Positions 311-64,000 of a stretch of 64,000 nt of DNA are shown here, piece by piece. Under the pieces are notes generated by a model. The model searched no databases. It saw only the letters and a program-made list of their open reading frames with translations, and had not been told where the DNA came from. A program made the translations under genes and the position numbers. The DNA is from the human T2T-CHM13v2.0 reference genome, Homo sapiens. Location of the stretch: assembly GCF_009914755.1 (NCBI RefSeq), contig NC_060938.1. One strand, given 5' to 3'. Positions within the stretch are counted from its first letter, which is position 1, and each line of letters opens with the position of its first letter.

Positions 311-530
311 TTTTAATTTATTTATTATTATACTTTAAGTTTTAGGGTACAAGTGCACATTGTGCAGGTTAGTTACATATGTATACATGTGCCATGGTGG
401 TGCGCTGCACCCACCAACTCGTCATCTAGCATTAGGTATATCTCCCAATGCTATCCCTCCCCCCTCCCCCACCCCACAACAGTCCCCAGAGTGTGATATT
501 CCCCTTCCTGTGTCCATGTGATCTCATTGT

Positions 531-4354
<3,824 letters not shown>

Positions 4355-4417
4355 TATGATGTTAGCTGGTTATTTTGCTCGTTAGTTGATGCAGTTTCTT
4401 CCTAGTCTCGATGGTCT

Positions 4418-5433: not shown

Positions 5434-5559
5434 CTTTGTGCTTTTATCTACTTTTGGAGTTTGATGATGGTGATGTACAGATGGGTTTTTGTTGTGGATG
5501 TCCTTTCTGTTTGTTAGTTCTCCTTCTAACAGACAGGTCCCTCAGCTGCAGGTCTGTTC

Positions 5560-20242: not shown

Positions 20243-20246
20243 TGTC

Positions 20247-39075: not shown

Positions 39076-40881
39076 GTTCTCCCTCTCCCTCTCCCTCTCC
39101 CTCTCCTCACGGTCTCCCTCTCCCTCTCCCCACGGTCTCCCTCTCCCTCTCTTTCCATTGTCTCCCTCTGATGCCGAGCCGAAGCTGGACTGTACTGCTG
39201 CCATCTCTGCTCACTGCAACCTCCCTGCCTGATTCTCCTGCCTCAGCCTGCTGAGTGCCTGCGATTGCAGGCATGCGCCACCATGCCTGACTGATTTTCG
39301 TATTTTTTTGGTGGAGACAGGGTTTCACTGTGTTGGCTGGGCTGGTCTCCAGCTCCTAACCGCGAGTGATCTGCCAGCCTCAGCCTCCCGAGGTGCCAGG
39401 ATTGCAGATGGAGTCTCATTCACTCAGTGCTCAATGTTGCCCAGGCTGGAGTGCAGTGGCGTGATCTCAGCTCGCTACAACCTCCACCTCCCAGCCGCCA
39501 GCCTTGGCCTCCCAAAGTGCCGAGATTGCAGTCTCTGCCCAGCCGCCACCCCATCTGGGAAGTGAGGAGCGTCTCTGCCTGGCCGCCCATCATCTGGGAT
39601 GTGTGGAGCCCCTCAGCCCGGCTGCCCAGTCTGGGAAGTGAAGAGCACCTCTTCCCGGTCGCCATCGCATCTAGGAAGTGAGGAGGGTCTCTGCCCGGCC
39701 GCCCATCGTCTGAGATGTGGGGAGCGCCTCTGCCCGGCCACTCCATCTGGGATGTGAGGAGTGCCTCTACCCAGCCACGACCCTGTCTGGGAGGTGAGGA
39801 GTGTCTCTGCCCGGCTGCCCAGTCTGAGAAGTGAGGAGCCCCTCTGCCCAGCAGCCGCCCCATCTGAGAAGTGAGGAGCCCCTCTGCCCAGCAGCTGCCC
39901 CATCTGAGAAGTGATGAGCCCCTCTGCCCTGCAGCCACCCCATCTGGGAAGTGAGGAGTGTCTCCGCCTGGCAGCCACCCCATCCAGGAGGGAGGTGGGG
40001 GGCAACCCCCACCAGTCAAGCCACCCCGTCCAGGAGGAAGATGGCAGGCAGCCCCCCCCCCCGGCCAGCTGCCCCATCCAGGAGGAAGGCAGGGGGCAGC
40101 CCCTGCCCGGCCAGCCACCCCATCTGGGAGGTAGGTGGGGGGCAGCCCCTTCCCGGCCAGCCGCCCCATCTGGGAGGGAGGTGGGGGGCAGCCCCCGCCC
40201 GGCCAGCCACCCCGGCAGGGAGGGAGGTGGGGAGCAGCCCACGCCCAGTCAGCCGCCCTGTCTGGGGGGTGGGGGGCGCCTCTGCCTGGCCACCCCTTCT
40301 GGGAAGTGAGGAGACCCTCTGCCCGGCCGCCACCCCATCTGGGAGGTGTACCCAACAGCTCATTGAGAACGGGCCATGATGACGATGGTGGTTTTGTCAA
40401 ATAGAAAAGGGGGAAATGTGGGGAAAAGATAGAGAAATCAGATTGTTGCTGTGTCTGTGTGGAAAGAAGTAGACATAGGAGACTCCATTTTGTTCTGTAC
40501 TAAGAAAAATTCTTCTGCCTTGGGATGCTGTTGATCTACGACCTTACCCCCAACCTGGTGCTCTCTGAAACATGTGCTGTGTCCACTCAGGGTTAAATGG
40601 ATTAAGGGCGGTGCAAGATGTGCTTTGTTAAACAGATGCTTGAAGGCAGCATGCTCATTAAGAGTCATCACCACTCCCTAATCTCAAGTACCCAGAGACA
40701 CAAACACTGAGGAAGGCACCAGGGTCCTCTGCCTAGGAAAACCAGAGACCTTTTTTCACTTGTTTATCTGCTGACCTTCCCTCCACTATTGTCCTGTGAC
40801 CTTGCCAAATCCCCCTCTGCAAGAAACACTCAAGAATGATCAATAAAAAAGAAAAAGAAAAAAAAACAACAAAAACAAAAA
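39076..40881 (+). mobile_element. SVA retrotransposon, full length, probably an older subfamily (SVA_B/C-like)
   Basis: (CCCTCT)n ~39079-39130, Alu-like ~39131-39530, GC-rich VNTR ~39530-40345, SINE-R ~40346-40847, AATAAA at 40842, A-rich tail. TSD AAAA(G/A)AAAGGTTCA at 39062-39075 and 41085-41098. Heavy CpG decay. Confidence 0.96.
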
Positions 40882-41090
40882 CTAGAAGAGTATAATTGGA
40901 TGTTTGTAACACAAAGGATAATAAATACTTGAGGGAATGGATAGTCTATTTTCCATGCTGTGATTGTTATGCCCTGCATGCCTGTATCAAAACATCTCAT
41001 ATATCCATAAATATATATATCTACTAAGTACCCACCAAAATTAAAAATTAAAAAATAAATAAAGTATACAAAATGAAAGGCAAAAAAAAA
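40882..41090 (+). mobile_element. SVA 3' transduction: 3' end of an old L1MA-type element plus a second poly(A)
   Basis: GAGTATAATTGGATGTTTGTAACACAAAGGATA…GCATGCCTGTATCAAAACATCTCAT…GTACCCACCAAAATTAAAAATT resembles the L1MA1-3 3' terminus; it lies inside the SVA TSDs; AATAAA at 41054 and 41058, poly(A) from 41082. Confidence 0.85.
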
Positions 41091-44000
41091 AAGGTTCAAC
41101 TCTGAGATATGACTGCATACATCACAAAGAAGTTTCTCAGAATACTTCTATCTAGTTTTCCTGTGAAGATATTTCCTTTTCCACCATAGGCCTCAAAGCG
41201 CTCCAAATGTCCACTTGCAGATTCTACAAAAACAGAGTTTCAAACTGCTCAATCAAAAGAAAGTTTTAACTCTGTGAAGTGAATGCACAAATCACAATAA
41301 AAGTTTCTCAGATTGCTTCCGTCTAGAATTTATGTGAAGGTATTTCCTTTTGTACCAAAGGATGCAAAGCCCTTCAAATGTCCACTTGCAGATTCTACAA
41401 AAAGAGAGTTTTCAAACTGCTCAATCAAAAGAAATTTTCAACTCTGTGAGATAAACACAGACAACACAATGAAGTTTCTCAGAATTCTTCTATCTAGTTT
41501 CTATGTGAGGATATTTCCTTTTCCACAATAGGCCTCAAAGTGCTCCAAAAGTCCACTTGCAGATTCTACAAAAAGAGAATTTTAAACTACTCAATCAAAA
41601 GAAAGTTTTAACTCTGTGAGATGAATGCACACATCAAAAAGAAGTTTCTCAGATTGCTTCTGTCTAGATTTTATGTGAAGATACTTCCTTTTCTATCACA
41701 GCCCTCAAAGCGCTGCAAATGTCTACTTGTAGATTCTACAAAAAGTGTTTCCAAACTGCTCAATCAAAAGAAAGATTAAACTCTGTAAGATGAACGCACG
41801 TATCCCAAAGAAATTTCTCAGAATTCTTCTGTGTAGTTTTTATGTGAAGACGTTTCCTATTCCACCATAGGCCTCAAAGCGCTAAAAGTGTCCAATTGCA
41901 GGTTCTACAAAAAGAGAGTTTCAAAACTGTTCAATCAAAACAAAGGTTTAACTCTTTGATATGAATGCACACATCACAAAGAAATTTCTCAGATTGCTTC
42001 TGTCGAGATTTTATGTGATGGTATTTCATTTTATAACATAGGACGCAAAGCGCTCCAAATATCTACTTGCAGATTTTACATAAACCGTGTTTCCAAACTG
42101 CTCACTCAAAATAAAGGTTCACCTTTGTGAGATGAACGTACACATCACAATGAAGTTTCTCACAAATCTTCAGTCTAGTTTTTATGTAAAGATATTTCCT
42201 TTTCCACCATTGTCCTCAAAGTGCTCCAAATGTCCACTATCAGATTCTACAAAAAGAGAGTTTCAAACTGTTCAATCACAGGAAAGGTTTAACACTGTGA
42301 GATGAATACACAAATCAAAAAGAAGTTTCTCAGATTGCTTCTCTCTAGATTTTATGTGAAGGTATTTCTTTCACTACCATAGGCCGCAAAGCACTCCAAA
42401 TGTCCAAATGCAGATTCTACAAATAGAGTGTTTAAAACTGCTCAATCAAAAGAAAGGTTCAACCCTGTGAGATGAATGCCCACCTTACAAAAAAGTTTCT
42501 CAGAATTCTTCTGTCTTGTTTTATGTGAAGATATTTCCTTTTCTACCATAGGCCTCAAAGCTCCCAAAATATCCACTTGTAGATTCTACAAAAAGAGTAT
42601 TTCAAAACTGCTCAATGGAAAAATCTCCAAACCTGTGACATGCATGAACACATCACAAATAATTTTCTCAGAATGCTTCTGTCTAGTTTTTATGTGAAGA
42701 TATTTCCTTTTCCAAAACAGGCCTCAAATTTCTCCCAATATCCACTTGCAGATTATCAAAAAGAATGTTTCAAAACTGCTCAATCATAAGAAAATTTCAA
42801 CTCTGTCACGTGAATGCACACATGTGAAAGGAGTTGCTCAGAATGCTTCTGTCTAGTTTTTATGTGAAGTTATTTTCTTTTCCACTTTAGGCAGTATAGC
42901 ACTCCAAATATCCACTTGCAGATTCTACAAAAAGAGTGTTTCCAAACTGCTCAACCAAAAGAAAGGTTCGAATCTGTGAGGTGAGTGCACACATCATAAA
43001 GAAGATTCTCAGAATGCTTCTGTCTAGTTTTTATGTGAAGATATTTCCTTTTCCACCATAGGCCTCAAAGTGCTGCAAATGACCAATTATAGATTCTACA
43101 AATGAGTTTTTCAAAACTGCTCAAAAGAAAGGTTCAACTCTCTAAGATGAATTCACATATCACAAAGAATTTTCTCAGAATGATTCTGTCTAGTTTTTAT
43201 GTGAAGTTATTTCCTTTTCCACCATAGTCCACAAAGCGCTCCAAATGTCCTATTGCAGATTCTACAAGAGTGTTTCAAAACAGCTCAATCAAAAGTAAGG
43301 TTAAATTCGGTGAGATGAATGCACACATCACAAAGAAGGTTCTCAGAATGCTTCTGTTTAGCACTTAAGTGAAGATATTTTCTTTTCCACCATAGGCCTC
43401 AAAACACTCCAAATGTCCTCCTGCAAATTCTACAAAACGTGTTTCAAAACTGTTCAATCAAAAGAAAGTTCCAACTCTGTCAGATGAATGCACACATCCC
43501 AAAGAAGTTTGTCAGAATGATTCTGTCTAGTTTTTATGTGAAAATGTTTCCTTTTCCACCATAGCCTGCAAAGCGCTCCAAATTTCCACTTGCAGATTCT
43601 ACAAAAAGAGTGTTTCAGAACTGCTCAATCGAAAGTAAGGTTCACATCTGGAAGATAGATGCACACATCCAAAAGAAGTTGGTCAGAATTATTCTGTCTA
43701 GTTTTAATGTGAAGATGTTTCCTTTTCCACACTAGGCCTCACAGTGCTCATAAATGTCCACTTGCAGATTCTACAAAAAGAGTGTTTTGAAACTGCTCAA
43801 TCAAAATAAAATTTCAACACTGTGAGGTGAATGCATACATCACAAAGAAGTTTCTCAGAATGCTTCTGTTTAGTTTTTATGTGAAGATATTTCCTTTTCC
43901 ACCGTAGGCCTGAAAACTCTCCAAATATCCACTTGCAGATTCTACAAAAAGAGTGTTTCAAAACTGCTCAATGAAAAGAAACGTTCAAATCTGTGAGATA

Positions 44001-44594
44001 AATTCACACATCAGAAAGAAGTTTGTCAGAATGTTTCTGTATAGTTTTTATATGAAGATACTTCCTTTTCCACCATAGGATTCAAAGTGCTCCAAATTTC
44101 CACATGCAGATTGTACAAAGTTTTTCAAAGCCGTTCAATCAAATGAAAGGTTCAAACCTGTGAGATGAATGCACACATCACAAAGAAATTTGTCAGAATG
44201 TTTCTGTCTAGCTTTTTTGAAGATATTTCCTTTTCCATCATATGCCTCAAAGCACTCCAAATGTCCACTTGCAGATAATACAAAAAGGGAGTTTCAAAGC
44301 TGCTGAATCAAATAAAGGTTAAATTATTTGAGATGAATGCACATATCACAAAGAAGTTTGCAGAACGCTTCTGTCTAGTTTTCATGTGAAGATTTTTTTT
44401 CAACATATGCCTCAAATCGCTCCAAATGTCCACTTGCAGATTCTACAAAAAGAGTTTCCAAACTGCTCAATAAAAAGAAAGGTTCAACTCTGTGAGAAGA
44501 CCGCACACATCACAAAGAAGTTTCTCAGACTGCTTCTGTCTAGGTATTATGTGAAGATATTTCCTTTTCCACCATAGGCCTCAAAATGCTCCAA
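41091..44594 (-). repeat. Alpha satellite: layer X to ~42550, then layer Z
   Basis: Dimeric GATTGCTTC/GAATTCTTC alternation gives way at ~42660 to mostly uniform AGAATGCTTCTGTCTAGTTTTT monomers. Confidence 0.96.
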
Positions 44595-44720
44595 TCCACT
44601 CCACTGCATTCCATTCTGTCCCATTCCATTCCACTCCACCTCACTCCACTGCACTCCACCCCACTCCATTCCATTACTTTACATTACATTCCACTCCATT
44701 CCATTACATTCATTTCTTTC

Positions 44721-47700
44721 GACAGGATCTCACTCTGTAACCCAGGCTGCAGTGCAGTGGCACAATCTCAGCTCGCATTACATTTCACCTTTCCATTCCA
44801 TTCCATTGCATTCCATTCCTTTCCATTCTATTCCATTCCACTCCACTCCAAACCACTCTACTCGACTCCACTCTACTCCATTCCATTCCATCCCATTGCA
44901 TTCAACTCCACTCCACTCCACTCCTTTCTTTTGACAATATCTCACCCTGTCAACCAGCCTGGAGTGAAGTAGCACAATCTCAGCTCACATTTCATTTCAC
45001 CATTCCATTCCAATTCATTCCACGCCATTCCATTCCATTGCATTCCATTCAATTCCATTCCACTCCATTCCATTCCATTCCACTACACTCCGCTCCACTG
45101 CAATCCACTCCATTCCAATCCATCACACTCCCTTTCACTACATTGCATTCCACTCCACTCCACTCCCTTCCATTCCATCCCATTGCATTAAACTCCACTC
45201 CACTCCACTACACTGCACTACACTACACTCCATTCCACTACACTACACTACACTACACTACACTACACTACACTACACTACACTACACTCCCTTCCATTC
45301 CATTCCATTCCACACCATTCCATTCCATTCCATTCCTTTCTTTCGACAGGATATCACTCTGTCACCCAGGCTGGAGTGCAGTGGAGTAATCTCAGCTGAC
45401 ATTTCACTTCACCATTATATTTCATTGCATTCCATTCCATTCATTTCCATTCCATAACATTCCACTGCACTTCACTCCACTCCACTTCAATCCACTCAAC
45501 TCCATTCCAATCCATTTCATTCCATTCCATCCACTCCATTCCACTCCATTCCACTCCAATCCACTCCACCTCAGTCCAGTCCATTCTACTCCATTCCACT
45601 CCAATCCATCCTATCACATTCCACTCCATTCCTCTCCACTCCACTCCACTCCACTTCACTCCACTCCATTCCATTCCATTCCATTCCATTCCATTCCATT
45701 CCATTCCATTCCATTCCTTTCTTTCAACAGGATCTCACTCTGTCACCCAGGCTGGAGTGCAGCGGCACTATCTCAGCTCACATTTCATTTCACCATTCCA
45801 TTCCATTCCATTCCATTCCATTCCATTCCATTCCATTCCACTCCATTCCATTCCACTCCATTCCATTCAATTCCATTCCATTCCGTTCCATTCCACTTCA
45901 TTCCAGTCCACCCTTCTACATTCCAATCCACTCCACTCCATTCCATTGTATTCCACTCCATTCCACTCCACTCCACTCCACTCTAATCAACTCTACTCCA
46001 CTCCATGCCATTCCATTCCATTCCATCCCATTCCATTCCACAGCATTCCACTCCACTCCACTAAACTCCACTCCAATTCACTCCATTCCATTCCATTCCA
46101 TTCCATTCTACTCCATTCCATTCCATTCCTTTCTTTTGACAGGATCTCACTCTGTCACCCAGGGTGGAGTGCAGTAACACAATTTCAGTTCACATTTCAT
46201 TTCACCATTCCATTCCATTCCATTCCATTCCATTCCATTCCATTCCTTTCCATTCAATTCCATTCCATCCCATTCTATTAAACTCCACTCCACTCCATTC
46301 CATTCCATCCCATTCCATTAAACTCCCTTCCACTCCAGTCCACTCCACACCACTCCACTCCATTCCATTCAACTCCCATCCACTCCAGTCCGCTCCACAC
46401 CACTCCACTCCATTCCAACCCATTCCATTCCACTCCAGTCCGCTCCACACCACTCCACTCCATTCCAACCCATTCCATTCCACTCCATTCCAATCCATTT
46501 CACTCCACTACCCTCCACTCCATTCAATTCCACTCCAAACTATTCCATTCCTCTCCACTCCACTTCACTCCACTCCACTACTCTCCACTCCATTCCATTC
46601 CATTCCATTCCACTCCATTCCATTCCATTCGTTTTCTTCGAAAGAGTGTCACTCTGTCACTGAGGCTGGAGTGTAGTGGCACAATCTCAGATCACATTTC
46701 ATTTCACCATTCCATTACATTCAATTCCATTCTATTTAACTCCAATCCACTCCACCCCACTCCACGCCATTCCATTCCATTCCACTCCACTCCACTCCGC
46801 TATATTCCATTCAATTCCTTCCCATCCCATTCCACTCCATTCCATTCCTCTCCACTCCACTCCACTCCACACCACTTCTCTCCATTCCGCTCCATTCCAT
46901 TCCATTCCATTGCATTCCTTTCTTTCGACAGCATCTCACTCTGCCACCCAGGCTGGAGTGCAGTGGCACAATCACAGCTCACATTTAATTTCACCATTCC
47001 ATTCCATTCCGTTCCATTCCATTGCATTCCAGTGCACTCCACTCCATTCCATTCCACTCCACTCCATTCCATTCCATTCCATTCCATTCCACTCCATTCC
47101 ATCCCACTCCACTCCATTCAATCCATCCCATTATATTCCACTCCATTCCACATCACTCCACTCCATTTGAAACCATTACATTCCTTTCCATCCCATTCCA
47201 TTCCACTCCATTCCACTCCACTCCACTCCATTCCACTCCATTCCATTCCACTCCACTCCACTCCATTCCACTCCATTCCATTCCACTACACTCCACTCCA
47301 TTCAATTCCATTCCTTTCCATTCCACTCCATTCCATTCCATCACTTTCTTTTGACAGGGTCTCACTCTGTCACACAGGCTGGAGTACAGTGGCACAATCT
47401 GAGCTCACATTTCATTTCACCTTTCCATTCCATTACACTCCATTCCACTCCAGTCCACTCAACTCCACTCCACTCCATTCCATTCCATTCCACTCCACTC
47501 CAATCCTCTCCTCTACTCTCCATTCCATCTTATTCCATTCCATTCCATTCGACTCCACTCCACTCCGATCCTTTCTATAGCATCACTTTACATTCCACTC
47601 CATTTCACTCCACTCCAGTCCACTCCACTGCATTCCATTCCATTCAATTCCAATACAATCCATTACATTACTTTCCTATCTTTTGAAAGGAAAGTCACCC

Positions 47701-50700
47701 TGGCTGGAGTGCAGTGGCACAATCTCAGCTCACATTTTATTTCACCATTCCATTCCATTTCGTTCCATTCTGTTCCATTCTGCTCCACTCGACTCCACTC
47801 CCTTCCACTCCAGTCCACTCCACTCCACTCCTGTCCACTCCGCATCAATACTCTCCATCCCATTCCATTCCACTCCATTCCACTCCACTGCACTCCACTC
47901 CACTCCATTCCATTACATTCTGTCCCATTAGATTCCATTCCATACCACACCACTCCAGTCCACTCCACTCCATTCCATTCCATACCATTCCATTCCATTC
48001 CATTCCATCCCATCCCATTCCATTCCATCCCATCCCATTCTATTCCATTCCATTCCATTTCTTTCAATTCCACTTCACTGCAATCCATTCCCTTCTTTTG
48101 ACAGGATCTCACTCTGTGACACAAGCTGGAGTGCAAGTAGCACAATCTCATCTCAAATTTCATTTCACCATTCCATTCCACTCCATTCCACTCCAGTGCA
48201 CTCCACTCAACTCCACTCCACTCCACTACACTCCATTCCACTCCATTCCAATCCACTCCATTTGATTCCATTCCTTTCTTTGAGAGAATCTCACTCTGTT
48301 ACCCAGGCTGGAGTGCAGTGGCACAATTTCAGCTCATATTTCATTTCACGAGTCCATTCCATTCTATTCCATTCCATTCTACTCCACTCCAGTCCACTCC
48401 ACTCTGTTCCATTCCATTCCACTCCTCTCCACTCCACTGCAATGCACTCCATTCTGTTCCATCCTATTCCATTCCACTCCACTCCACTCCATTCCATTCC
48501 ATCCCATTCAATTCCACTCCATTCCACTCCACTTCACTCCACTCCATTCCACTCCATCCCATTCAATTCCACTCTATTCCACTCCCATCAACTCCACTCC
48601 ACTCCATTCCATTCCATTCCCTTCCATTCCATTCCTTTCCTTCGACAGGATCTCACTGTCACACCCAGGTTGGAGTGCTGTGGCACAATCTCAGCTCACA
48701 TTTCATTTCACCATTCTATTCCATTTCATTCCATTGCATTCCACTCCATTCCATTGCATTCCTTTCCTTTCCATTCCGTTCAATTCCATTCCATTCCATT
48801 CCATTCCACTCCACTCCACTCCACTCCATTTAACTCCGCTCCATTCTATTCAATTCCACTCCACTCCATTCCACTCCAATACACTCCACTCCACTCGGCT
48901 CCATTCCATTCCATTCCATTCCACTCCATTGCACTCCAGTGCACTCCACTCAACTCCACTCCACTAACCTCCACTCCATTCCATTCCAATCCATCCCATT
49001 CTATTCCACTCTATTCCCCTCCACTCCACTCCCCTCCACTTCACTGCACTTTAATCCAATCCAGTCCACTCTTGTTCACTCCACTCCACTCCATTCCACT
49101 CCATCCCATTCCATTCCACTCCACTCTACTGCACTCCACTCCACTCCATTCTATTCCATTCCACTCCTTTCCACTCCTTTCCTTTCTTTTGACAGGATCT
49201 CACTCTCACACCCCGGCTGGAGTGCCATGGCACAATCTCAGCTCACATTTCATTTCACCATTTTATTCTATTGCATTCCATCGCATTCTATTCCATTCTA
49301 TTCCATTGCATTCCACTACACTCCATTCCACTCCACTCCACTACACTACACTCGAGTCCATTCCATTGCTTTCCATTCCACTCCATTCCACTTCTCTGCA
49401 CTCCAGTCGACTCCACTCCACTCCACTCCACTTCATTCCATTCCAGTCCATCCCATTCTATTCCACTCCATTCCCCTCCACTCCACTTTACTCCACTCCA
49501 GTCCACTCCACTCCACTCCACCCACTCCACTACATTCCATTCCTTTCCATTATTTTCCAATCCATTCCATTCCTTTCCTTTCTTAAGACAGGATCTCACT
49601 CTATCACCCAGGATGGAGTACAGTGGGACAGTCTCAGCTCACATTTCATTTCACCATAGCATTCCATTCCTTTTCATTCCATTCCATTCTTTTAAATTCC
49701 ATTCCATTCCATTCCACTCCACTCCACTTCACTCCACTGCACTCCATTCCATTCTATCCCATTCCATTCCACTCCATTCCACGCCACTCCAATCCACTCC
49801 TTTCCATTCCATCCCATTCCATTCCACTCCAATCCACCCCAATCCACTCCACTCAACTCCACTCCACTCCTATCCACTCCATTCCATTCCACTCCATCCC
49901 ATTCTATTCATGCCAATCCACTCCACTTAACTCCACTCCATTCCATTCCACTACACTCCTTTCCATTCCATTCCTTTCTTTCGACAGGATCTCACTCTGT
50001 CACCCAAGATGGAGTACAGTGGCACAATCTCAGTTCACATTTCATTTCACCATTCCATTGCATTCCATTACATTGCATTCCTTTCCATTCCATTACGTTC
50101 CATTCCACTCCACTCCACTCTTCTGCATTCCATTCCATTCCATTCCATTCCACTGCATTCCATTCCACTCCACACCACTATATCCATTCCACTCTATTCC
50201 ATTCCACTCCAGTCCACTCCACTCCAATCCACGCCACTCCACTCCATGTCATTCCATCCCATTACATTCCACTCCATTCCACTCCACTCCACTCCATTCC
50301 ATTCCATTCTACTCCATTCCATTCCATTCCTTTCTTTTGACTGGATCTCACTCTGTCACCCAGGCTGGAGTGCAGCAACACAATTTCAGTTCACATTTCA
50401 TTTCACCATTCCATTCCATTCCATTCCATTCTATTCCACCCCACTTCACTCCACTCCACTCCATTCCAATCCATCCCACTCCATTCAGCTCCCTTCCACT
50501 CCAGTCCATTCCACACCACTCCACTCCATTCCATTCAACTCCCTTCCACTTCAGTCCACTCCAAACCACTGCACTACATTCCATTCCATCCCATTCCATT
50601 CCACTCCATTCCATTCCACTACATTCCATTCCATTCCATTACACTCCATTCCATTCCATTCCACTACACTCCATTCCATTCCGTTCCACTACATTCCATT

Positions 50701-53700
50701 CCATTCCATTCCATTACACTCCATTCCGTTCCATTCCTTTCTTTCTACAGGATCTCACACTGTCTCCCAGGCTGGAGTACAGTGGCACAATCTCAGCTCA
50801 CATTTCATTTCACCAATCCCTTCCACAGTATTCCATTCCATTCCATTCCACTCCATTCCATTCAATTCCATTCCACTGCACTCCACACCACTCCACTCCA
50901 TTCCATCCGGTTCCATTAGACTCCATTCCACTCAACTCCACTCCATTTCACTCTACTCCATTCCATTACATTCCGTTATACTCCATTCAATTCCATTTCT
51001 TTGTTTTGAGAGGATCTCACTCTGTCACCCAGGCTGGAGTGCAGTGACAAAGTTTCAGTTCACATTTCATTTCACAATTCCAATCCATTCCATTCCTTTC
51101 CATTCCATTCCATTAAATTCCATTCCATTCCATTCTATTCCACTCCATTCCACTCCACTCCAATTCACTCCATTCGATCCCATTCCATTCCACTCCATTC
51201 CACTCCACTCCACTCCTCTCCACTCCATTCCATTCTATTCCATCCATTGCATACCATTCCATTCCCCTCCACTCCACTCCTCTCCACTCCAGTCCACTCC
51301 ACTCCACTCCATTCCACTCCATTCCGTTCCATTGCACTCCATTCCGTTCCATTCCTTTCTTTTGACAGGATCTCACTCTCTCTCCCAGGATGGAGTGCAG
51401 TGGCACAATCTCAGCTCATATTTCGTTTCACCATTCCACTCTACTGCATTCCAATCCATTCCATTTCATTCCATTCCATTCCACTCCACTCCCCTATATA
51501 CATCCCACTCCATTACATTCCATTCCATTACACTCCACTCCACTCCATTCCACTCTATGCCACTCCACTCCATGTCATTCCATCCCATTACATTCCACTC
51601 CATTCCACTCCACTCCACTCCATTCCATTCCATTCCGTTCCATTCCATTCCGTTCCATTCCATTCCATTCCATTCCGTTCCATTCTAATCCATTCCATTT
51701 TATTCCTTTCTTTTGATAGGATCTCACTCTGTCACCCAGGCTGGAGTGCAGTAACGCAATTTCAGTTCACATTTCATTTCACCATTCCATTCCATTCATT
51801 TCCATTCCATTCCATTCCATTCCATTCCATTCCATTCCATTCATTTCCATTCCATTCCATTCCATTCCATTCCATTCATTTCCATTCCATTCCATTCCAT
51901 TCCACTCCACTCCACTCCATTCCATTCCATCCCATTCCATTCAACTCTCTTCCTCTCCATTCCACTCCACACCACTCTAATCCATTCCATTCAACTCCCT
52001 TACACTCCAGTACACTCCACACCACTCAACTCCATTCTATTCAATCCCATTCAATTCCATTCCATTCCACTATACTTCACTCCACTACCCTCCACGCCAT
52101 TCAATTCCACTGGAAACCATTCCATTCCACTCCACTCTACTCCTCTCCACTCCACTCCATTCCATTACATTCGAGTTCATTCCTTTCAATTCCAGTCCAC
52201 TCCACTCCACTACATTCCATTCAATTCCATCCCATCCCATTCCAATCCATTCCATTCCTCTCCATTCTACTGCACTCCACTCTACTCGTCTGCATTCCAT
52301 TCCATTCCTTTCTTTTGACAGCATCTCACTGTGTCACCAAGGCTGGAGTGCAGTGGCACAATCACAGCTCACATTTAATTTCACCATTCCATTCCATTGC
52401 ACTCCAGTGCACTCCACTGTATTCCACTCCACTCCATTCCATTCCATTCCATTCCATTCCATTCCATTCCATTCCACTCCACTCCAGTCCTCTCCATTCC
52501 AATCCATCCCATTCCTTTCCACTCCATTACACATCACTCAACTCCACTCCACTCCAAACCATTACATTCCTTTCCATCCCATTCTATTCCACTCCATTCC
52601 ACTCCACTCCACCCCACTCCTCTCCATTCAATTCCGTTCCTTTCCATTCCACTCCATTCCATTCCATCCCTTTCTTTCGACAGGGTCTCACTGTCTCACA
52701 CAGGCTGGAGTACAGTGGCACAATCTGAGCTCACATTTCATTTCACCTTTCCATTCCATTCCACTCCAATCCACTAAACTCCACTCCACTCCATTCCATT
52801 CCACTCCACTTTTCTCCTCTCCTCTCCATTCCATCCCATTCCATTCCACTCAATACCACTGCACTCCACTCCACTCCGATCCTTTCCATTACATCACATT
52901 GCATTCCACTCCTTTCCGCTCCACTCCACTACATTCCATTCCATTCAATTCCAGTACACTCCATAACATTACTTTCCTTTCTTTCAACAGGATCTCACTC
53001 TGTCACCCAGGCTGGAGTGTAGTGGCACAATCTCAGCTCACATTTCATTTCACCATTCCGTTCCATTCCATTCCATTCCATTCCATTCCTACTCCATTTC
53101 ATTCCACTCCACTCCACTCCACTCCATTTCACTCCATTCGACTCCATTCCACTCCACTCCATTCCACTCCAATCCACTCCACTCCACTCGATTGTATTCC
53201 ACTCCATTCCATTTCATTCCAGTCCATACCATTCCATTCCATTCCACTCCATTCCATTCCACTCCACTCCATTACACTCAGAGCACTCCACTCCATTCGA
53301 CTCCACTCCACTCCATTCCACTCCATTCCTTCCAGTCCACTGCATTCCATTTCACTCCATTCCACTCCATTCCACTCTATTCCACTCCACTCCATTCCAC
53401 TCCACTCCATTCCACTCCACTCCATTTGATTCCACTCCATTCCATTCCACTCCACTCCATTCCATTCCATTATACTCCATTTCGTTCCATTCCTTTATTT
53501 CGACTGGATCTCACTCTGTCACACATACTGGAGTGCAGTGGCACAATCTTAGCTCACATTTAATTTCACCATTCCTTTCCATTTCATTCTATTCCATTCC
53601 ATTGCATTCCACTCCACTTCACTCCACTCCATTCCACTCCACTCCTCTCCACTACACGACTCTACACTCCACTCCATTCCATTTCATTCCATTCCATTCT

Positions 53701-56700
53701 AATGCATTCTGATCCACTCCACTCAACTCCACTCCACTCCGCTCTATTCCATTCCGTTCCATTTTGTTCTATTCTGTTCCATTCCACTCCAATCCTTTCC
53801 ACTACCCTCCTTTCCACTGCACTCCATTTCACTCTACTGCACTCCATTCCACTCCAATCCACTCCAACCCACTCCACTCCACTCCATTACATTCCAATGC
53901 ACTTCATTCCATTCCATTCAATTCCATTCCCGTCCATTCCACTCCATTCCACTCCATTCCACAACACTTCATTCCACTGCAGTCCATTCCACTCCACTCC
54001 AATCCATTCCACTCCATTTCATTCATTTCCACTCCATTCCTTTCCATTCCACTCCACTGCATTCCACTCCACTCCTCTCCACTCCATTCCACTCCACTCT
54101 ACTCCAATCCACTACAGTCCATTCCAGTCCACTCCATTCCATTCCATTCTACTTCGTTCCTTTCCATTCCATTATTTCGACTGGATCTTCCTCTGTCACC
54201 CAGACAGGAGTGCAGTGGCACAATCTTAGCTCACATTTCATTTCCCCTTTCCATTCCATTGCATTCCATTCCATTCCATGTCATTCCATTCCACTCCACT
54301 CCACTCCACTCCACTCTACTCCATTCCGTTCTGTTCCATTCCATTTCATTGCATTCCGATCCATTCCATTCCATTCCTCTCCACTCCATTCCACTCAATT
54401 TCATTCCATGCCACTCAACTCCACTGCAGTCTTCTCCACTTCACTCCACTCCATTCCACTACAATCAACTAAACTCCACTCTACTCCACTCCACTCCATT
54501 CCATTCCATTCCATTCCATGCAACTACACTCCGATCATCTCCACTCAACTCCATTCCACTCCACTCACTCCGTTTCATTCCGTTCCGTTCCAGTTCTTTC
54601 CGTTCCTTTCCATTCCACTCCATTCCATTCCACTCCACTCCAGTCAACTCCACTCCATTTCACTCCATTCCACTCCATTCCACTCTTATCCACTCCACCC
54701 CAATCCACTACACTCCACTCCATTACATTCCACTCCATTCTATTCCATTCCATTGCATTCCATTCCACTCCACTCCATTCCATTCCATTGCACTCCATTC
54801 CACTCCATTCCAAACCATGCCACTCCACTCCACTCCATGTCATTCCATTACATTACATTCCAATCCATTCCACTCCACTCCACTCTATTCCATTCCATTC
54901 CATTCCATTGTACTCCATTCCATTCCTTTCCTTTGACAGGATCTCACTCTGTCACCCAGGCTGGAGTGCAGTAACAGAATTTTAGTTCACATTTCATTTC
55001 ACCGTTCCATTCCATTCCATTCCATTCCATTCCATTCCATTCCATTCCATTTTATTCCACTCCACTCCCCTCCACTCCATTCCATTCCATCCCATTAAAT
55101 TCAACTCCCTTCCACTCCAGTCCACTCCACACCACTCCACTCCATTCCATTCAACTCCCTACCACTTCTGTCCACTCCACACCACTACACTCCATTCCAG
55201 TCCATCGCATTCCATTCCACTCCATTCCACTCCACTATATTCCATTCCATTCTGTGACACTGCATTCCATTCCATTCCTTTTTTTCTACAGGATCTCATC
55301 CTGTCTCCCAGCCTGGAGTGCAGTGGCACAATCTCAGCTCACATTTCATTTCACCATTCCTTTCCACTGCATTCCATTCCATTCCATTCCATTCCATTCC
55401 TTTCCACTCTACTCCACTCCATCATATCCATTCCACTCCTTTCCATTCAATTCCATTCCATTGCACTCCACACCACTCCACTCCATTCCATCCGGTTCCA
55501 TTAGACTCCATTCCACTCAACTCCACTCCATTTCACTTTACTCCATTCCATTACATTCCATTATACTGCAATCAATTCCATTTCTTTGTTTTGAGAGGAT
55601 CTCACTCTGTCACCCAGGCTGGAGTGCAGTGACACAATTTCAGTTCATATTTCATTTCACCATTCCATTCCACTCCATTCCTTTATATTCCATTCCATTG
55701 AATTCCATTCCTTTCCGTTCCATTCCATTCTATTCCACTCCACTCCACTCCAATTCACTCCATTCTATCCCATTTGATTCCACTCCATTCCACTCCACTC
55801 CACTCCTCTCCACTCTATTCCATTCCACTCCATCCATTCCATACCACTCCATTCCCCTCCACTCCATTCCTCTCCACTCCAGTCCCCTCCATTCCACGCC
55901 ACTCCACTCCTCTCCACTCCAGTCCCCTGCACTCCACGCCACTCCACTCCACTCCATTCCACTCCATTCAATTCCATTGCATTCATTCGGTTCCTTTCCT
56001 TTCTTTCGACAGGATCTCACTCTCTCTCCCAGGTTGGAGTTCAGTGGCACAATCACAGCTCACATTTGGTTTCACCATTCCATTCCACTGCATTCCAATC
56101 CGTTCCATTTCATTCCATTCCACTATATCCATTCCACTCCATTCCATTCCATTCCATTCCACTCCTCTCCACTCCATTCCACTCCACGCCACTCCACTCC
56201 ATGTCATTCCATCCCATTACATTCCACTCCATTCCACTCCACTCCACTCCATTCCATTCAATTCCATTCCATTCTAATCCATTCCATTCCATTCCATTCC
56301 ATTCCATTCCATTCCATTCCATTCCAATCCATTCCATCCTATTTCTTTCTTTTGACAGGATCTCACTCTGTCAACCAGGCTGGAGTGCAGTAACACAATT
56401 TCAGTTCACATTTCACATCACCATTCAATTCCGTTCCATTCCTTTCCATTCCTTTCCATTCCACTCCATTCCATTCCATTCCACTCCCCTCCACTCCATT
56501 CCATTCCATCCCATTCCATTCAACTCCCTTCCTCTCCAGTCCACTGCAAACCACTCCACTCTATTCCATTCCATCCTTTCAATTCCACTCAATTCCACTC
56601 CACTTCATTCCACTACCCTCCGCTCAATTCAATTCCACTCGAAACCATTCCATTCCACTCCACTCCACGCCATTCCATTCCATTACATTCCAGTCCATTC

Positions 56701-59700
56701 CATTCCATTCCCGTCCACTCCACTCTGCTACATTCCATTGAATTCCATCCCATCTCATTCCAATCCATCCCATTCCTTTCCACTCCATTCCACATCACTC
56801 AACTCCACTCCACTCCAAACCATTACATTCCTTTCCATCCCATTCCATTCCACTCCATTCCACTCCACTCCACCCCACTCCTCTCCATTCAATTCCGTTC
56901 CTTTCCATTCCACTCCATTCCATTCCATCCCTTTCTTTCGACAGGGTCTCACTGTCTCACACAGACTGGAGCACAGTGGCACAATCTGAGCTCACATTTC
57001 ATTTCACCTTTCCATTCCATTCCACTCCATTCCACTCCAGTCCACTCAACTCCACTCCACTCCATTCCATTCCACTCCACTACACTTTTCTCCTCTCCTC
57101 TCCATTACATCCCATTCCATTCCACTCCATTCCACTGCACTCTACTCCCCTCCGATCCTTTCCATTGAATCACATTGCATTCCACTCCATTCCACTGCAC
57201 TCCACTCCTCTACATTCCGTTCCATTCCATTCCATTCCTTTCTTTCGACAGCATCTCACTCTGTCACACAGTTTGGAGTGCAGTGGCACAATCACATCTC
57301 ACATCTAATTTCACCATTCCATTCCATTCCGTTCCATTACATTGCATTCCAGTGGACTCAACTCCTTTCCACTCCACTCCATTCCATTCCATTCCATTCC
57401 ATTCAATTCCATTCCAATCCACTCCAGTCCTCTCCATTCCAATTCGTCCCATTACATTCCACTCCATTCCACATCACTCCACTCCACTCCACTCAAAACC
57501 ATTACATTCCTTTCCATCCCATTCCATTCCACTCCATTGCACTCCACTCCACTCCATTCAATTCCGTTCCTTTCCATTCCACACCATTCCATTCCATCCT
57601 TTTCTTTCGACAGGGTCTCACTGTCTCACACAGACTGGAGCACAGTGGCACAATCTGAGCTCACATTTCATTTCACCTTTCCATTCCATTCCACTCCATT
57701 CCACTCCAGTCCACTCAATTCCACTCCACTCCATTCCATTCCACTCCACTACACTTTTCTTCTCTCCTCTCCATTCCATCCCATTCCATTCCACTCCATT
57801 CCACTGCACTCTACTCCCCTCCGATCCTTTCCATTGAATCACATTGCATTCCACTCCATTCCACTGTACTCCACTCCACTCCACTCCACTACATTCCATT
57901 CCATTCAATTCCAGTATACTCCATAAAATTACTTTCCTATCTTTCCACAGGATCTCACTCTGTCACCCAGGCTGGAGTGCAGTCGCACAATCTCAGCTCA
58001 CATTTCATTTCACCATTCCGTTCCATTCCATTCCATTCCATTTCATTCCACTCCACTCCACTCCACTCCATTTCACTCCATTCCACTCCATCCCACTCCA
58101 CTCCACTCCATTCCATTGCATTCCAGTCCATTCCATTTCATTCCAATCCAATCCATTACATTCCATTCCACTCCATTCCGCTCCATTCCATTCCAGTCCA
58201 ATCCATTCCACTCAGTGCACTCCACTCCATTCCACTCCACTCCACTCCATTCCACTCCATTCCTTCCATTCCACTCCATTCCATTTCATTCCATTCCAAT
58301 GCATTCCATTCTATTCCACTCCACTCCATTCCATTCCACTCCATTCCATTTCATTCCACTCCATTCCATTCCACTCCACTCCATTCCATTCCATTCTACT
58401 CCATTTCCTTCCATTCCTTTATTTTGACTGGATCTCACTCTGTCACACATACTGGAGTGCAGTGGCACAATCAGTTCACATTTCATTTCACCATTCCATT
58501 CCATTTCATTCTATTCCATTCCATTCCACTCCAGGCCACTACACTACACTCAACTCCACTCCATTTCACTCTACTCCATTCCGTTCTGTTCCATTCCATT
58601 CCGTTCCATTCCATTGCATTCCATTCCATTCCATTCCATTCCATTCCATTCCTCTCGACTCCATTCCGCTCCACTCAATTCCACCCCATTCCACTCAACT
58701 CCCCTGCAGTCCTCTCCACTCCACTCCATTCCACTACAGTCCACTAAACTCTACTCTACTCCACTCAATTTCAATCCATTCCATTCCATTCCATGCAACT
58801 GCACTCCGATCAACTACACTCAACTCCACTCCACTCCACTCACTCCATTTCATTCTGTTCTGTTGCAGCTGTTCCGTTCCTTTCAATTCCACTCAATTGC
58901 ATTCCACTCCACTCCAGTCCACTCCACTCCATTTCACTCCATTCCACTCCTATATACTCCACTCCACTCCAATCCACTCCACTCCACTCCATTACATTCC
59001 ACTCCATTCTTCTCCATTCCTCTCCATTCCATTCCATTCCATTCCATTCCATTCCATTCCACTCCATTCCCCTCTGCTCCACTCCATTCCATTCCACTCC
59101 ACTCCATTCCACTCCACTCCACTCCATTCCACTCCACTCCGTTTCACTAACTCCACTCCACTCCACTCCACTCCATTCCTTGCATTCCAATCTATTCCTT
59201 TTCATTTTATTCCACTCCACTCCACTCCATTCCACTCCACTCCATTCCACTCTACTCCATTCCACTAAGCTCCATTCCATTCCACTCCATTCCATTCCAC
59301 TCTACTCCATTCCATTCCTTTCCTTTCTACTCCCTTCCATTCCATCATTTCGACTGGATCTCACTCTGTCACCCAGACTGGATTGCAGTGGCACAATCTT
59401 AGCACACATTTCATTTCACCATTCCATTCCATTACACTCCACTCAATTACATTCCATTCCACTACACTCCACTACACTCTACTTCCCTCCACTCCATGCC
59501 ACTCCACTCCATTCTACTTGACTCCTTTCCATTCCATTCCATTCAATTCCATTCTATTCCATTCCATTCCAGTGCACTTTTATCCACTCCACTCAACTCC
59601 AATCCACACCTCTCCACTCCTCTCCATTCCATTCCTTTCCATTCCATTCCGTTCTGTTCCATGCCATTTCTTTCCATTCCATTCCATTCCACTCTACTCC

Positions 59701-62700
59701 ATTCCCTTCCACTCCACTCTATTCCATTCCACTCCATTCCATTCCATTCCACTCCACTCCACTCCATTCCATTCCACTCCACTCCATTCCATTCCTTTCC
59801 ATTCCATTCCATTAAATTCCACACCACTCCGATCCACTCCACTCAACTCCACTCCAATCCACTCCACTCCAATCTGTTCCTTTCCATTCCATTCCATTCC
59901 ACTCCTTTCTATTCCACTACAATCCATACCACTCCACTACATTTCTCTCATTTCCATTCCATTACAGTCCACTCGACTCCACTCCAGTACACTCCATTCA
60001 ATTCCATTCCACTCCATTACATTCCAGTCCACTCCATTCCTTTCCATTCCATTCCAATCCATTCCACTCCATTACACTCCACTCCACTCCACTCCACTTC
60101 ATTCCATTCCACTCCAAACCATTACACTCCACTCCACTCCAATCCATTCTACTCCACTACACTCCATTCCATTCCATTCCATCCCTTTCCACTCTACCCC
60201 ACACCACTCCACTCCATTCCATTCCACTCCACTCCATTCCATTGCAATCCATTCCATTCCGTTCCATCCCACTCCACTCTGAACCACTCCACTCAACTCC
60301 ACTGCATTCCACTCCACTCCACTTAGTTCTGTTCTGCTTCTTTCCATTCCGTTCCTTTACATTCCATTCCATTCCATTCCACTCCACTCTGAACCACTCC
60401 ACTTAACTCCACTTCATTCCTGTCCACTCCACTCAGTTCCGTTCTGTTTCTTTCCTTTCCATTCCATTCCGTTTCGTTCCATTACATTCCAATCCCCTTC
60501 ATTCCATTGCAGTCCACATCACTCCACTCCACTCCACTCCATTCCATTCCACTCCACTACACTCCATTCCATTCCACTCTACTCCACACCACTCCACTAC
60601 ACTCCATTCCATTCCATTCCATTCCATTCCATTCCAATCCATTCCATTCCACTCCATTCCATTCAGATCCATTCCATTCCATTCCACTCCACTATGAACC
60701 ACTCCACTCAACTCCACTGCATTCCAGTCCACTCCACTCAGTTCCGTTCTGTTTCTTTCCATTCCGTTACATTCCATTCCATTCCGTTCTATTTCATTCC
60801 AATCCTCTCCATTCCATTACAGTCCATTCCATTCCACTTCACTCCAATCCACTTCACTCCACTCCACTCCACTCCTCTCCACTCAATTTCATTCCACTCC
60901 ATTCCGTTCCATTTCACTCCATTACATTCCATTCCATTGCTCTCCATACCCCTCCATTCCACTCCACTCCATTCTACTCCACTCATCTCCACTCCACTCC
61001 ATTCCACTCCATTACATTCCACTCCATTCCATTCCATTCCATTCCATTCCATTCCATTCCACTCCATTCCATTCCATTCCACTCCATTCCATTCCATTCC
61101 ATTCCATTCCACTCCATTCCATTCCATTCCATTCCACTCCATTCCATTCCATTCCACTCCATTGCTCTCCATTCCACTCCTCTCCATTCCACTCCACTCC
61201 ATTCCACTCCACTCCACTTCATTCCACTCCATGCCATTCCACTCCACTCCTTTCCTTCCCATTCTACTCCATTGCATTCCAGTCCTTTATTTCAAATGAA
61301 TCTCACTCTGTCATCCAGAAAGGAGTGCAGTGGCACAATTTTAGCTCACATTTCATTTCACCATTCTCTTCCATTCCATTCAATTCCACTGCATTCCATT
61401 CTACTCCACTCCTTTCCATTCCACTTCACTCCATTCCACTCTATTCCACTCTACTCCCTTCCATTCCAATCCACTCCACCCCATTCCTTTCCATCCAGTT
61501 GCATTCCATTCAATTCCACTGCACTCCGATCCACTCCACTCTACTCCTCTCCACTCCACTCCACTCCGTTCCTTTCTTTTCCATTCCATTTCATTTCATT
61601 CCATTCCATTCCGTTACATTCCATTTCATTCCACTCTACTCCACTCCATTCCACTTCACACCATTCCACTAAACTCCACACCACTCCACTGCACTCTACT
61701 TCACTCCACTCCATTCCTTTCCATTCCATTCCATTCCACTGCACTCGGTTTCACTCCACTGAACTCCCCTCCATTCCACTCCACTCCACTCCGTTCCATT
61801 CCGTTCCATTCTGTTTCATTCCATTCCACTCCATTCCATTCCTCTCCCCTCCGTATCACTCCACTCCATTTCCCTACATTCCACTCCATTTTACTCGACT
61901 CCTCTCCGATACACTTTACTTCATTCCATTCCAATCCATTCCCTTCCAGTCCACTCCATTCCATTCCATTCCATTCCCCTCCATTCCACTCCATTCCACA
62001 CCACTCCGTTCCACTCCCCTACACTCCACTCCACTCCATTTCATTCCACTCCACTCCATTCTATTCCATTCCATTCCTCTCCACTACATTCCATTCCAAT
62101 CCATCAAATTCCATTCCATTCCACTGCACTGTGACCCACTCCTCTCAATTCCACTCCACTCCATTCCATTCCATTCCACTCCATTCTGTTCCATTCAATT
62201 CCATACCGTTCCATTCCATTCCATTCCACTCCACTCCCTTCCATTCCACTTCATTCCACTCCACTCCCTTCCATTCCACTCCATTCCACTCCACTCCACA
62301 CAACTCCTCACAACTCCAGTCAATTCCACTCAATTCCACCAAACTCCTCTCCACTCACTACACTCCATTCCAGTCCATTTCATTCCATTCAATTCAAGTG
62401 CACTCCGATCCACTCCAATGAACTCCACTCCACTCCACCCCACTCCTTTCCATTCTCTTCCATTCTGTTCCATTCCATTCCAATCCATTCAATTCCACTC
62501 CACTCCATTCCACTCCACTCCATTTCACTACATTCCACTCCATTCCATTGCAATCCACTGCATTCCACTCCACTCCATTCCCTCCCTTTCCACTGCATTC
62601 CATTCCATTAAACTCCACTCCACTCCATTTCACTCCATTCCACTCCACTCCACTCCATTCCACTCCATTCCATTTCACTCCAACCCATTCCATTTCATTT

Positions 62701-63728
62701 TACTCCATACCTTTCCATTCCTTTATTTTGACTGGATCTAACTTTGTCACCCAGACTGTAGTGCAGTTGCAGAATCTTAGCTCACATTTCATTTCACTAT
62801 TCCATTCCATTCCATTCCATTCCATTCCACTCCACTCCACTCCACCCTACTCCATTCCACTCCACTACACTACACACCACTCCCCTCCACTTCACTCTGT
62901 TCCATTCAACTTCACTCCATTCCATTCCATTCCATTCCAGTACACTCTGATCCACTCCACTCAACTCCACTCCACTTCACTCCACTCCTCTCCATTACTT
63001 TCCTTTCCATTCTGTTGCATGCCATTCCACTCCATTCCATTCGACTCCATTTCACTCCACTCCATTTCACTCCATTCTACCCCATTCCACTCCACTCCAA
63101 TCCACTCCTTTCCATTCCATGCCACTAAATTCCATTCCAAACCATTCCACTTCGTTCCACTCCACTCTGTTGCACTCCAATCCATTCCACTCTACTCCAC
63201 TCCGCTCAACTCCACTCCACTCCACTTCAATCCACTCCACTACATTCCATTCCATTCTATTCCATTCCATTCCATTCCATTCCATTATACTCAACTCCAT
63301 TACCTTCCCCTCCATTCCACTCCAATCCACTCCTCTCTGCTACACACCAGTCCATTCCATTCCACTCTACTCCACTTCACTCGACTCCATTCTGTTCCAT
63401 TCAGTTCCATTCCATTCCGTTCTGTGCCACTCCACACCATTGCTTTCCATTTCACTCCATTCCACTCCACTCCTGTTCACTACATTCCACTCCATTCCAC
63501 TCCACTCCATTCCTGTGCATTGCATTCCATTCCATTCCACTGCACTCTGATCCACTCCTGTCAACTCCATTCCTCTACAGTCTGTTCCACTCCACTCCAT
63601 TGCACACCATTCCATACCACTGCACTCCATTCCATTCCATTCGACTCCATTCCATTTCACTCCTTTATTTGGATTGGGACTCTCTCTGTCACCCAGATTG
63701 GAGTGCAGTTGCACAATCTTAGCTCACA
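44721..63728 (-). repeat. About 39 interspersed copies of a ~55-bp Alu 3'-end fragment (AluJ-like)
   Basis: Consensus GACAGGATCTCACTCTGTCACCCAGGCTGGAGTGCAGTGGCACAATCTCAGCTCAC. Approximate starts: 44721, 44933, 45345, 45726, 46138, 46640, 46927, 47353, 47685, 48100, 48282, 48644, 49191, 49587, 49983, 50339, 50746, 51008, 51364, 51715, 52317, 52679, 52986, 53502, 54179, 54935, 55287, 55593, 56008, 56354, 56940, 57247, 57609, 57946, 58426, 59352, 61294, 62730, 63672. Confidence 0.92.
45236..45285 (+). repeat. (CACTA)10 pure microsatellite within the satellite
   Basis: Ten uninterrupted CACTA units read directly. Confidence 0.9.
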
Positions 63729-64000
63729 TATCATTTCACCATTCCATTCCATTCCATTCTATTCCATTCCACTGCACTGCAATACACTGCACTCAACTCT
63801 ACGCCACTCCAATCCACTCCACTATGTTCCATTCCATTCTATTCTGTTCATTCCGTTCCATTCCGTTCCATTCTGTTCCATTCCGTTCCATTACATTCCA
63901 TTCCACTCCACTCCATTCCCTTCCCCCACATTCCACTCCAATCCACTCCACTCCACTACACACGGGTCCATTCCATTCCAATCCACCCCTCTTCATTCCA

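What the first reader, a model, noticed from the sequence alone, without database searches (positions are those of the whole stretch)
46138..59410. Hidden ~4.6-5.4 kb higher-order repeat read out by Alu-fragment variants
Seen: variant copies recur in the same order. Pairs: 50339/54935 (AAC..AATTT.AGTTCAC), 50746/55287 (CTACAGG, followed by CATCCGGTTCCATTAGAC), 51008/55593 (TTGTTTTGAGAGG), 51364/56008 (CTCTCTCTCCCAGG), 51715/56354, 52317/57247 (GACAGCATC…AATCAC), 52679/57609 (GACAGGGTC…TCTGAGC), 52986/57946 and 53502/58426 (CACACATACTGG). Offsets are 4541-4960. A third partial copy (46138, 46927, 47353, 47685) lies ~5.3-5.6 kb upstream of its counterparts. Inference: a roughly 10-subunit HOR whose pentamer tracts have since changed length by slippage.
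Basis: partly seen in the sequence, partly recalled or inferred. Interest (0 to 1): 0.7.

Follow-up and report, generated by a model that had tools for sequence, protein, structure and literature searches.

The report
Frozen old duplication in satellite DNA
A 4.6-kb block of ten Alu-tagged satellite units on human chromosome 14 occurs twice in a row, and the same pair recurs, with local losses, at other sites on the acrocentric short arms; it is likely the relic of one old duplication rather than an active higher-order repeat, so it is ordinary, though useful as an evolutionary barcode.

Summary
From 44,590 the window is a CATTC/CACTC satellite 3 island holding 39 Alu-derived ~80-bp fragments. 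Units 16-25 (50.3-54.9 kb) recur in order as units 26-36: fragments differ by 6.7% against 15.4% for all pairs, and only 1 of 2000 shuffles of unit order did as well. It is not an amplified higher-order repeat. The island is only 24.7 kb. Three marker searches place the block at 9 acrocentric loci, never as more than two copies. A tree groups first copies across chromosomes apart from second copies (100% support). So one old tandem duplication was frozen, then spread by segmental duplication. The chr15 paralogue keeps the clean 10+10 form; others lost 3 or 5 units. Pentamer slippage is supported (105 of 125 length changes between paralogues are multiples of 5). Multi-kb nested repeats and TE fragments in HSat3 are described; I did not find this particular block in print. 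Low interest.

The parts
44590..64000 (+). CATTC/CACTC satellite 3 island with 39 Alu-derived ~80-bp fragments in the window; it runs on to about chr14:8,005,255 (24.7 kb in all) and then returns to alpha satellite
50329..54924 (+). copy 1 of the block: ten units u16-u25 (types A B C D A' E F G H I); the true left edge probably lies 100-150 bp earlier, in the preceding tract
   Evidence: tract motif shared before u16 and u26 seen
54925..61283 (+). copy 2: eleven units u26-u36 (A B C D A' [extra F] E F G H I); likeness to copy 1 fades in the long tracts after about 58,500
56764..57212 (+). extra chimeric unit (u31): tract tail of copy-1 type joined to a fragment and tract of copy-2 type; present on C13, C14:7.99, C21:8.42, absent on C15, C14:9.2, C22
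46128..46629 (+). A-type unit u5, older partial relative of u16/u20
   Evidence: 3 of 81 differences to u16 and to u20; tract best match u16
46917..47674 (+). E and F units u7-u8, older partial copy of u21-u22 (92.2%) and u32-u33 (90.9%)
41085..44589 (.). 171-bp alpha satellite abutting the island; the same alpha/HSat3 junction is in five other loci examined

Best explanation
A ten-unit, 4.4-4.6 kb block of an Alu-tagged satellite 3 array occurs twice in tandem, most likely from one old unequal exchange, after which the pair likely froze and was carried to other acrocentric sites inside segmental duplications. Steps: (1) A ~60-bp piece of an antisense Alu end became part of the repeat unit among CATTC/CACTC pentamers (homology shown) and was amplified; units now differ by ~15% (shown). 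(2) Small duplications gave recurring types A, E and F (shown; order of events inferred). (3) One tandem duplication copied ten units (copies ~7% apart; shown as one clade split, mechanism inferred). (4) The alpha-HSat3-alpha island was copied to 9 loci on C13/14/15/21/22; paralogues are 0-4.6% apart (shown). (5) Since then each locus has changed by pentamer slippage, by deletions of whole units between look-alike tracts, and by at least one in-register exchange between the copies, which left the chimeric extra unit (patterns shown, mechanisms inferred). No function is proposed: neutral heterochromatin turnover.
For: Order and identity tests. Same unit order in all 7 other loci fetched. Copy 1 vs copy 2 is 6.7-7.4% in 6 of 7 loci (11.7% over 5 units at C14:6.25), while paralogue distances are 0-4.6%; the tree of 14 rows splits copy 1 from copy 2 with 100% ultrafast bootstrap. 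Marker B: 15 matches at 0-1 mismatch in 9 loci, at most 2 each. Marker F: 19 of 35 matches lie in the same 9 loci, 1-3 each, the third being the extra unit. Marker H: 20 of 26 matches lie in the 9 loci, 2 each except 4 at C21:10.2, explained by a separate 27.7-kb repeat. Whole-unit losses: C14:9.2 and C22 lack E F G in copy 1; C14:6.25 and C13:13.18 lack five units in copy 2. Chimera: 5 of 5 diagnostic sites copy-1 type upstream, 9 of 9 copy-2 type downstream. Alu homology: 47 of 63 bases to a full Alu, score 78 against a maximum of 52 in 500 shuffles.
Against: Only one haploid assembly was searched, so other haplotypes or apes may hold one or three-plus copies. The chimeric unit shows that exchange between the copies did occur, so 'frozen' is not absolute. 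Only 4 of 10 copy-1/copy-2 length differences are multiples of 5, so slippage alone does not explain them. The last two units align at background identity. C21:10.19 is inferred from markers only, not fetched. Marker searches miss copies with more mismatches. Rfam did not detect the fragments as SRP/Alu-like.
Confidence: 0.85

Rival explanations
1. A true higher-order repeat array once existed with many copies and has shrunk to two copies and a fragment.
For: Partial third set u5, u7, u8; the chimeric unit points to a past one- or three-copy allele; islands vary from 25 to ~157 kb among paralogues.
Against: All 9 loci show at most two copies, always the same two lineages; units 10-15 between the partial set and copy 1 have no counterparts in the block; related arrays on C20 and C4 show no such order.
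Confidence: 0.1
2. The two copies are kept alike by ongoing concerted evolution or selection for a structural or binding role.
For: One in-register chimera; HSat3 is reported to bind TEAD and other factors (PMC11526998, passages).
Against: Copies are further apart than paralogues on different chromosomes; 3 or 5 units are freely lost at 5 of 9 loci (4 fetched, 1 by markers).
Confidence: 0.03
3. An assembly artefact or chance similarity in low-complexity sequence.
For: Pentamer tracts align at 86% on average by composition alone (630 pairs).
Against: Copies are 7-9% apart, too far for a false duplication; the structure recurs in separately placed loci on five chromosomes; shuffle tests 1 of 2000.
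Confidence: 0.02

Closest known systems
HSat3 / satellite III with GGAAT and GGAGT pentamers (group II) on acrocentric short arms
   Same: CATTC 1437 and CACTC 1103 times in 24,661 bp; short-arm location; abuts alpha satellite. Described in PMC7767330, PMC2588610 and PMC11305138 (passages seen). TE fragments as part of HSat3 units are stated in bioRxiv 10.1101/2021.07.12.452052 (passage), citing Bandyopadhyay 2001 (reference line only). A satellite III shared by 13/14/21 and contiguous with alpha (Vissel 1992) was seen as a title only.
   Different: Subfamily (A1-6, B1-5) and clone identity not assigned; this unit-by-unit order was not found described.
Nested tandem repeats / HORs in GAATG arrays (Yq12 3.6 kb, Yq11 3.36 and 5.63 kb, 4p11)
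   Same: Multi-kb periodicity above the pentamer (PMC2588610 passages; term NTR).
   Different: Those run over tens of kb as highly similar copies; here two copies at ~91%.
Alpha-satellite higher-order repeats
   Same: A fixed order of diverged monomer types recurs; in-register exchange between copies.
   Different: Monomers of unequal length, two copies only, no homogenisation.
HSat1B (DYZ2)
   Same: Satellite unit that carries an Alu fragment.
   Different: AT-rich 2.47-kb unit, mostly on Y; here ~60 bp of Alu in 0.2-1.9 kb pentamer units.
Pseudo-homologous regions of chr13/14/21 around SST1
   Same: 99.6-99.7% identity to C13 and C21 copies, opposite strand, as described for the chr14 inversion (bioRxiv 10.1101/2022.08.15.504037 passages; its figure window ends at chr14:7,988,409).
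   Different: Formal PHR limits are in supplements I could not see.

Membership tests
Higher-order repeat (alpha-satellite sense) | Fixed number of monomer types repeated in the same order | tested here: met
   10+11 here, 10+10 on C15
Higher-order repeat (alpha-satellite sense) | Copies of the block clearly more alike than monomers | tested here: met
   6.7% vs 15.4% at fragments; 91-93% vs 82-85% overall; not met for the last two tracts
Higher-order repeat (alpha-satellite sense) | Monomers of similar length | tested here: not met
   182-1942 bp; definition
Higher-order repeat (alpha-satellite sense) | Many tandem copies | tested here: not met
   at most two per locus at 9 loci; island 24.7 kb
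Higher-order repeat (alpha-satellite sense) | Homogenisation within the array (concerted evolution) | tested here: not met
   tree groups by copy rank across loci, 100% support; one local chimera
HSat3 / satellite III group II | Mixed CATTC and CACTC pentamers | tested here: met
HSat3 / satellite III group II | Mainly on acrocentric short arms and pericentromeres | tested here: met
   253 matches of the fragment/pentamer junction; the 100 listed lie on C3, 4, 9, 13, 14, 15, 16, 20, 21, 22, 24; control 0
HSat3 / satellite III group II | Assignment to a named subfamily by 24-mers or clone identity | not testable with these tools
   no subfamily k-mer sets or clone sequences on hand
Alu-derived fragment | Homology to the 3' end of an Alu, antisense | tested here: met
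   47 of 63 bases to a full Alu, above 500 shuffles; no Rfam hit in the array; an AluJ-type origin is recalled, not tested
chr13/14/21 pseudo-homologous region | Near-identity among 13, 14, 21 with chr14 inverted | tested here: met
   99.6-99.7%, opposite strand
chr13/14/21 pseudo-homologous region | Haplotype mosaicism across a pangenome | not testable with these tools
   one assembly only

The most novel reading that the evidence does not exclude
A higher-order repeat caught at birth: a two-copy block that has already undergone in-register exchange (the chimeric unit) and that in some human or ape haplotypes has gone on to three or more copies. Its Alu tags would give a unit-by-unit barcode for timing exchange among acrocentric short arms, and the TT variant of the tag would be a recurrent Alu insertion site.
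Probability: 0.2. Interest if true: 0.45.

Novelty: new member of a known kind. Interest (0 to 1): 0.2.

Why it matters
Modestly. It shows how far the first step towards a higher-order repeat can go and then stall, and it gives a register of about 40 typed units by which nine acrocentric loci can be aligned and ordered where pentamer DNA is otherwise unalignable. It suggests no function and changes no current view: multi-kb nesting in HSat3, TE fragments in HSat3 units and short-arm segmental duplication are all described.

Tried and rejected
Megablast self-comparison was swamped by alpha satellite. TRF reports only the 5-bp period (its longest period is 500). Counting alignment gaps in multiples of 5 does not discriminate: 21 of 32 between copies, but 19 of 25 in one control, so I used paralogue unit lengths instead. 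z-scores for tract similarity were uninformative because length differences inflate the spread; ranks were used. I first read the extra unit as a plain 669-bp tandem duplication; rejected because the insertion is ~449 bp replacing ~62 bp and is chimeric. I tested whether it came from the C14:6.25 lineage: no (92.4% against 97%). Pairing of unit 9 with 23/34 rejected. I considered that the end of the island marks an inversion breakpoint; rejected because the same exit junction is on C13, C21 and other loci. Related arrays on C20 (18 units) and C4 (27 units) show no matching order. Rfam found nothing in the array. Nine literature searches found no description of this block; four papers were not held (Jarmuz 2007, Altemose 2022 review, the Science version of the centromere paper, Choo 1990), and preprint supplements were not seen, so it may be described there or in the CenSat/RepeatMasker tracks. 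The neighbouring inverted arrays (C14:7.93, C13:11.42, C21:8.48, C22:7.76-7.78) were not examined beyond BLAST rows of 80% identity or less.

Full report
Setting. The window is mostly 171-bp alpha satellite, with an L1-like insert at about 310-5,559 and an SVA-like insert at about 39,078-41,085 (names from recall of these elements). At 44,590 it changes to a pentamer array. The array is mixed CATTC/CACTC (1437 and 1103 occurrences in 24,661 bp) and returns to alpha satellite at about chr14:8,005,255, 5 kb past the window. A seed search finds 39 ~80-bp interruptions in the window's array (40 hits, one in the SVA-like element dropped). Their majority sequence matches the antisense 3' end of a full Alu at 47 of 63 bases, score 78 against at most 52 in 500 shuffles. 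Rfam reported nothing in the array. The fragment/pentamer junction has 253 matches genome-wide at 0-1 mismatch, control 0; the 100 listed lie on eleven chromosomes. So the composite unit is a widespread kind of HSat3, not peculiar to this window.

The observation. All 22 coordinates and the named motifs check out. Aligning the 39 fragments gives types: units 16-25 read A B C D A' E F G H I, units 26-36 read A B C D A' F E F G H I. The best five-unit lag is 10, from unit 16 (mean 5.4 differences), reached by 1 of 2000 order shuffles; a chain score on fragments by 1 of 2000; on tracts alone by 19 of 2000. Six of ten copy-1 tracts pick the predicted copy-2 tract as best of 35. Rare k-mers peak at offsets 4.25-5.0 kb. 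Identity is 93.0% over units 16-19/26-29 and 21-23/32-34, 91.4% over the longer span, 82-85% in four controls, and only 85.8% for the last two units. Fragments differ at 54 of 808 sites (6.7%) against 15.4% over 703 pairs (unit 9 left out). The third partial set is units 5, 7, 8 (92.2% to copy 1, 90.9% to copy 2 for 7-8); unit 6 intervenes and unit 9 does not pair.

Is it an array of higher-order repeats? A search of the window's genome found near copies at C21:8.42 (99%), C13:11.36 (98%), C15:14.18, C14:9.21, C22:11.95 and C14:6.25 (89-93%). I fetched these six, later C13:13.18, and two more distant arrays on C20 and C4. All seven close loci carry the same units in the same order. C13:11.36 and C21:8.42 are as in the window (10+11). 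C15 has exactly 10+10 (period 4,386). C14:9.21 and C22 lack E, F, G in copy 1, by a junction between the A' and G tracts. C14:6.25 and C13:13.18 keep only A F G H I of copy 2. C20 (18 units) and C4 (27 units) show no such order. Three markers were then counted genome-wide. B: 15 matches at 0-1 mismatch in 9 loci, one or two each; 7 more at 2 mismatches against 3 in the control. F: 19 of 35 matches in those 9 loci, the other 16 scattered single-mismatch hits. H: 20 of 26 in those loci, two each except four at C21:10.2, where a separate 27.7-kb repeat also triplicates an Alu insertion. No locus holds more than two blocks.

Order of events. Paralogues differ by 0-0.2% (C13/C14:7.98/C21), 0.6% (C14:9.21/C22) and 2.1-4.6% otherwise; the two copies within a locus differ by 6.7-7.4% in six loci and 11.7% over five units in C14:6.25. 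A K2P tree of 14 rows (seven loci, missing units as gaps; C13:13.18 and C21:10.19 not included) separates all first copies from all second copies with 100% ultrafast bootstrap. The duplication therefore came before the spread among chromosomes, and the copies have not been homogenised since. Absolute age is open. At the short-arm de novo rate of 1.33e-7 per generation (PMC12724521, passages) 7% means roughly 7 million years with generations of 25-30 years; at the autosomal rate it would exceed the 16-23 million years given for satellite III (PMC7767330, passage). I infer 7-20 million years. The 99.6-99.7% identity and opposite strand of the C13 and C21 copies fit the described chr14 inversion and exchange among 13/14/21 (bioRxiv 10.1101/2022.08.15.504037 and PMC11463614, passages).

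Slippage and the extra unit. Of 173 unit-length comparisons between the window and paralogues (units next to structural changes, and units 8-9, left out), 125 differ and 105 of those by a multiple of 5; 36 of 39 unit lengths are 1 or 2 modulo 5. Slippage is thus well supported, though only 4 of 10 copy-1/copy-2 differences are multiples of 5. The jump in offset from 4,639 to 4,930 has another cause. Against C15, the window has about 449 bp (56,764-57,212) in place of about 62 bp. This piece is a chimera: its tract tail matches copy 1 at 5 of 5 diagnostic sites and carries a copy-1 10-bp insertion, while its fragment and tract match copy 2 at 9 of 9. The simplest reading (inferred) is an in-register exchange between the copies near the start of the F fragment, a patch of which was then copied into the A' tail in the ancestor of the 13/14/21 loci. 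It is the process that builds higher-order repeats, seen once and without amplification.

Comparison with what is known. Satellite III with GGAAT and GGAGT pentamers on acrocentric short arms is described (PMC7767330, PMC2588610, PMC11305138; passages). [quoted passage not shown] Warburton 2008 reports 3.36-5.63 kb higher-order units in GAATG arrays. The block works like the seed of a HOR but fails three membership features: equal monomers, many copies, homogenisation. Nine searches found no account of this block; several key papers and all preprint supplements were not available, so absence from print is not established. Other papers opened (passages only): PMC11526998, PMC4022460, PMC8125562, bioRxiv 10.64898/2025.12.22.696095 and 10.1101/2021.07.12.451456; none of the passages seen describes it.

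Verdict. Real, correctly seen, over-named. One old tandem duplication, frozen and dispersed (confidence 0.85). New member of a known kind; interest 0.2.

Noticed in passing
L011 (C14:8,003,423) and L029 (C14:6,247,773): Two different full-length Alus (32 of 280 bases apart) sit at the same position of the satellite's Alu-derived tag, in different units, each with a 16-17 bp target-site duplication; both host units carry the TT variant typical of H/I units. First insertion also on C13:11.35 and C21:8.41; second also on C13:13.18 and three times on C21:10.20-10.25. Possibly a recurrent insertion site.
   Followed up: partly
G000:C21:10,196,000-10,252,000: Markers recur at a 27.7-kb spacing, three times: a larger tandem triplication starting inside copy 2 of the block. 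Not fetched.
   Followed up: no
window 44,590 and L011:5243-5278: The alpha-to-HSat3 entry junction is shared by five other loci examined and the exit junction has 16 matches at 0-3 mismatches. Island length is 24.7 kb here, ~36 kb on C13 and C21 and up to ~157 kb at C14:9.06-9.22, so this copy has lost about 11 kb relative to C13/C21.
   Followed up: partly
window 59,342-64,000: Tag spacing widens from ~0.4 kb to 0.9-1.9 kb and all tags become H/I type; short local repeats at 60,250-60,800 and 63,537/64,163.
   Followed up: no
window 310-5,559: About 5.2-kb antisense L1-like insert in alpha satellite (identified from recall); no target-site duplication of 8 bp or more found in the small range searched.
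   Followed up: partly
window 39,078-41,085: SVA-like insert (CCCTCT hexamers, Alu-like part with weak SRP hits, GC-rich VNTR) with a short target-site duplication of at least 9 bp.
   Followed up: partly
window 5,560-39,075: Monomeric alpha satellite (~80% between monomers) with strand switches, including one near 20,245.
   Followed up: no
G000:C14:7,926,500-7,931,400 (just before the window): A second tagged HSat3 array on the opposite strand flanks the alpha block; likewise on C13 and C21.
   Followed up: no
window 47,685: Unit 9 has a 7-bp deletion in its tag that C13 and C21 lack, one of few differences private to this copy.
   Followed up: yes
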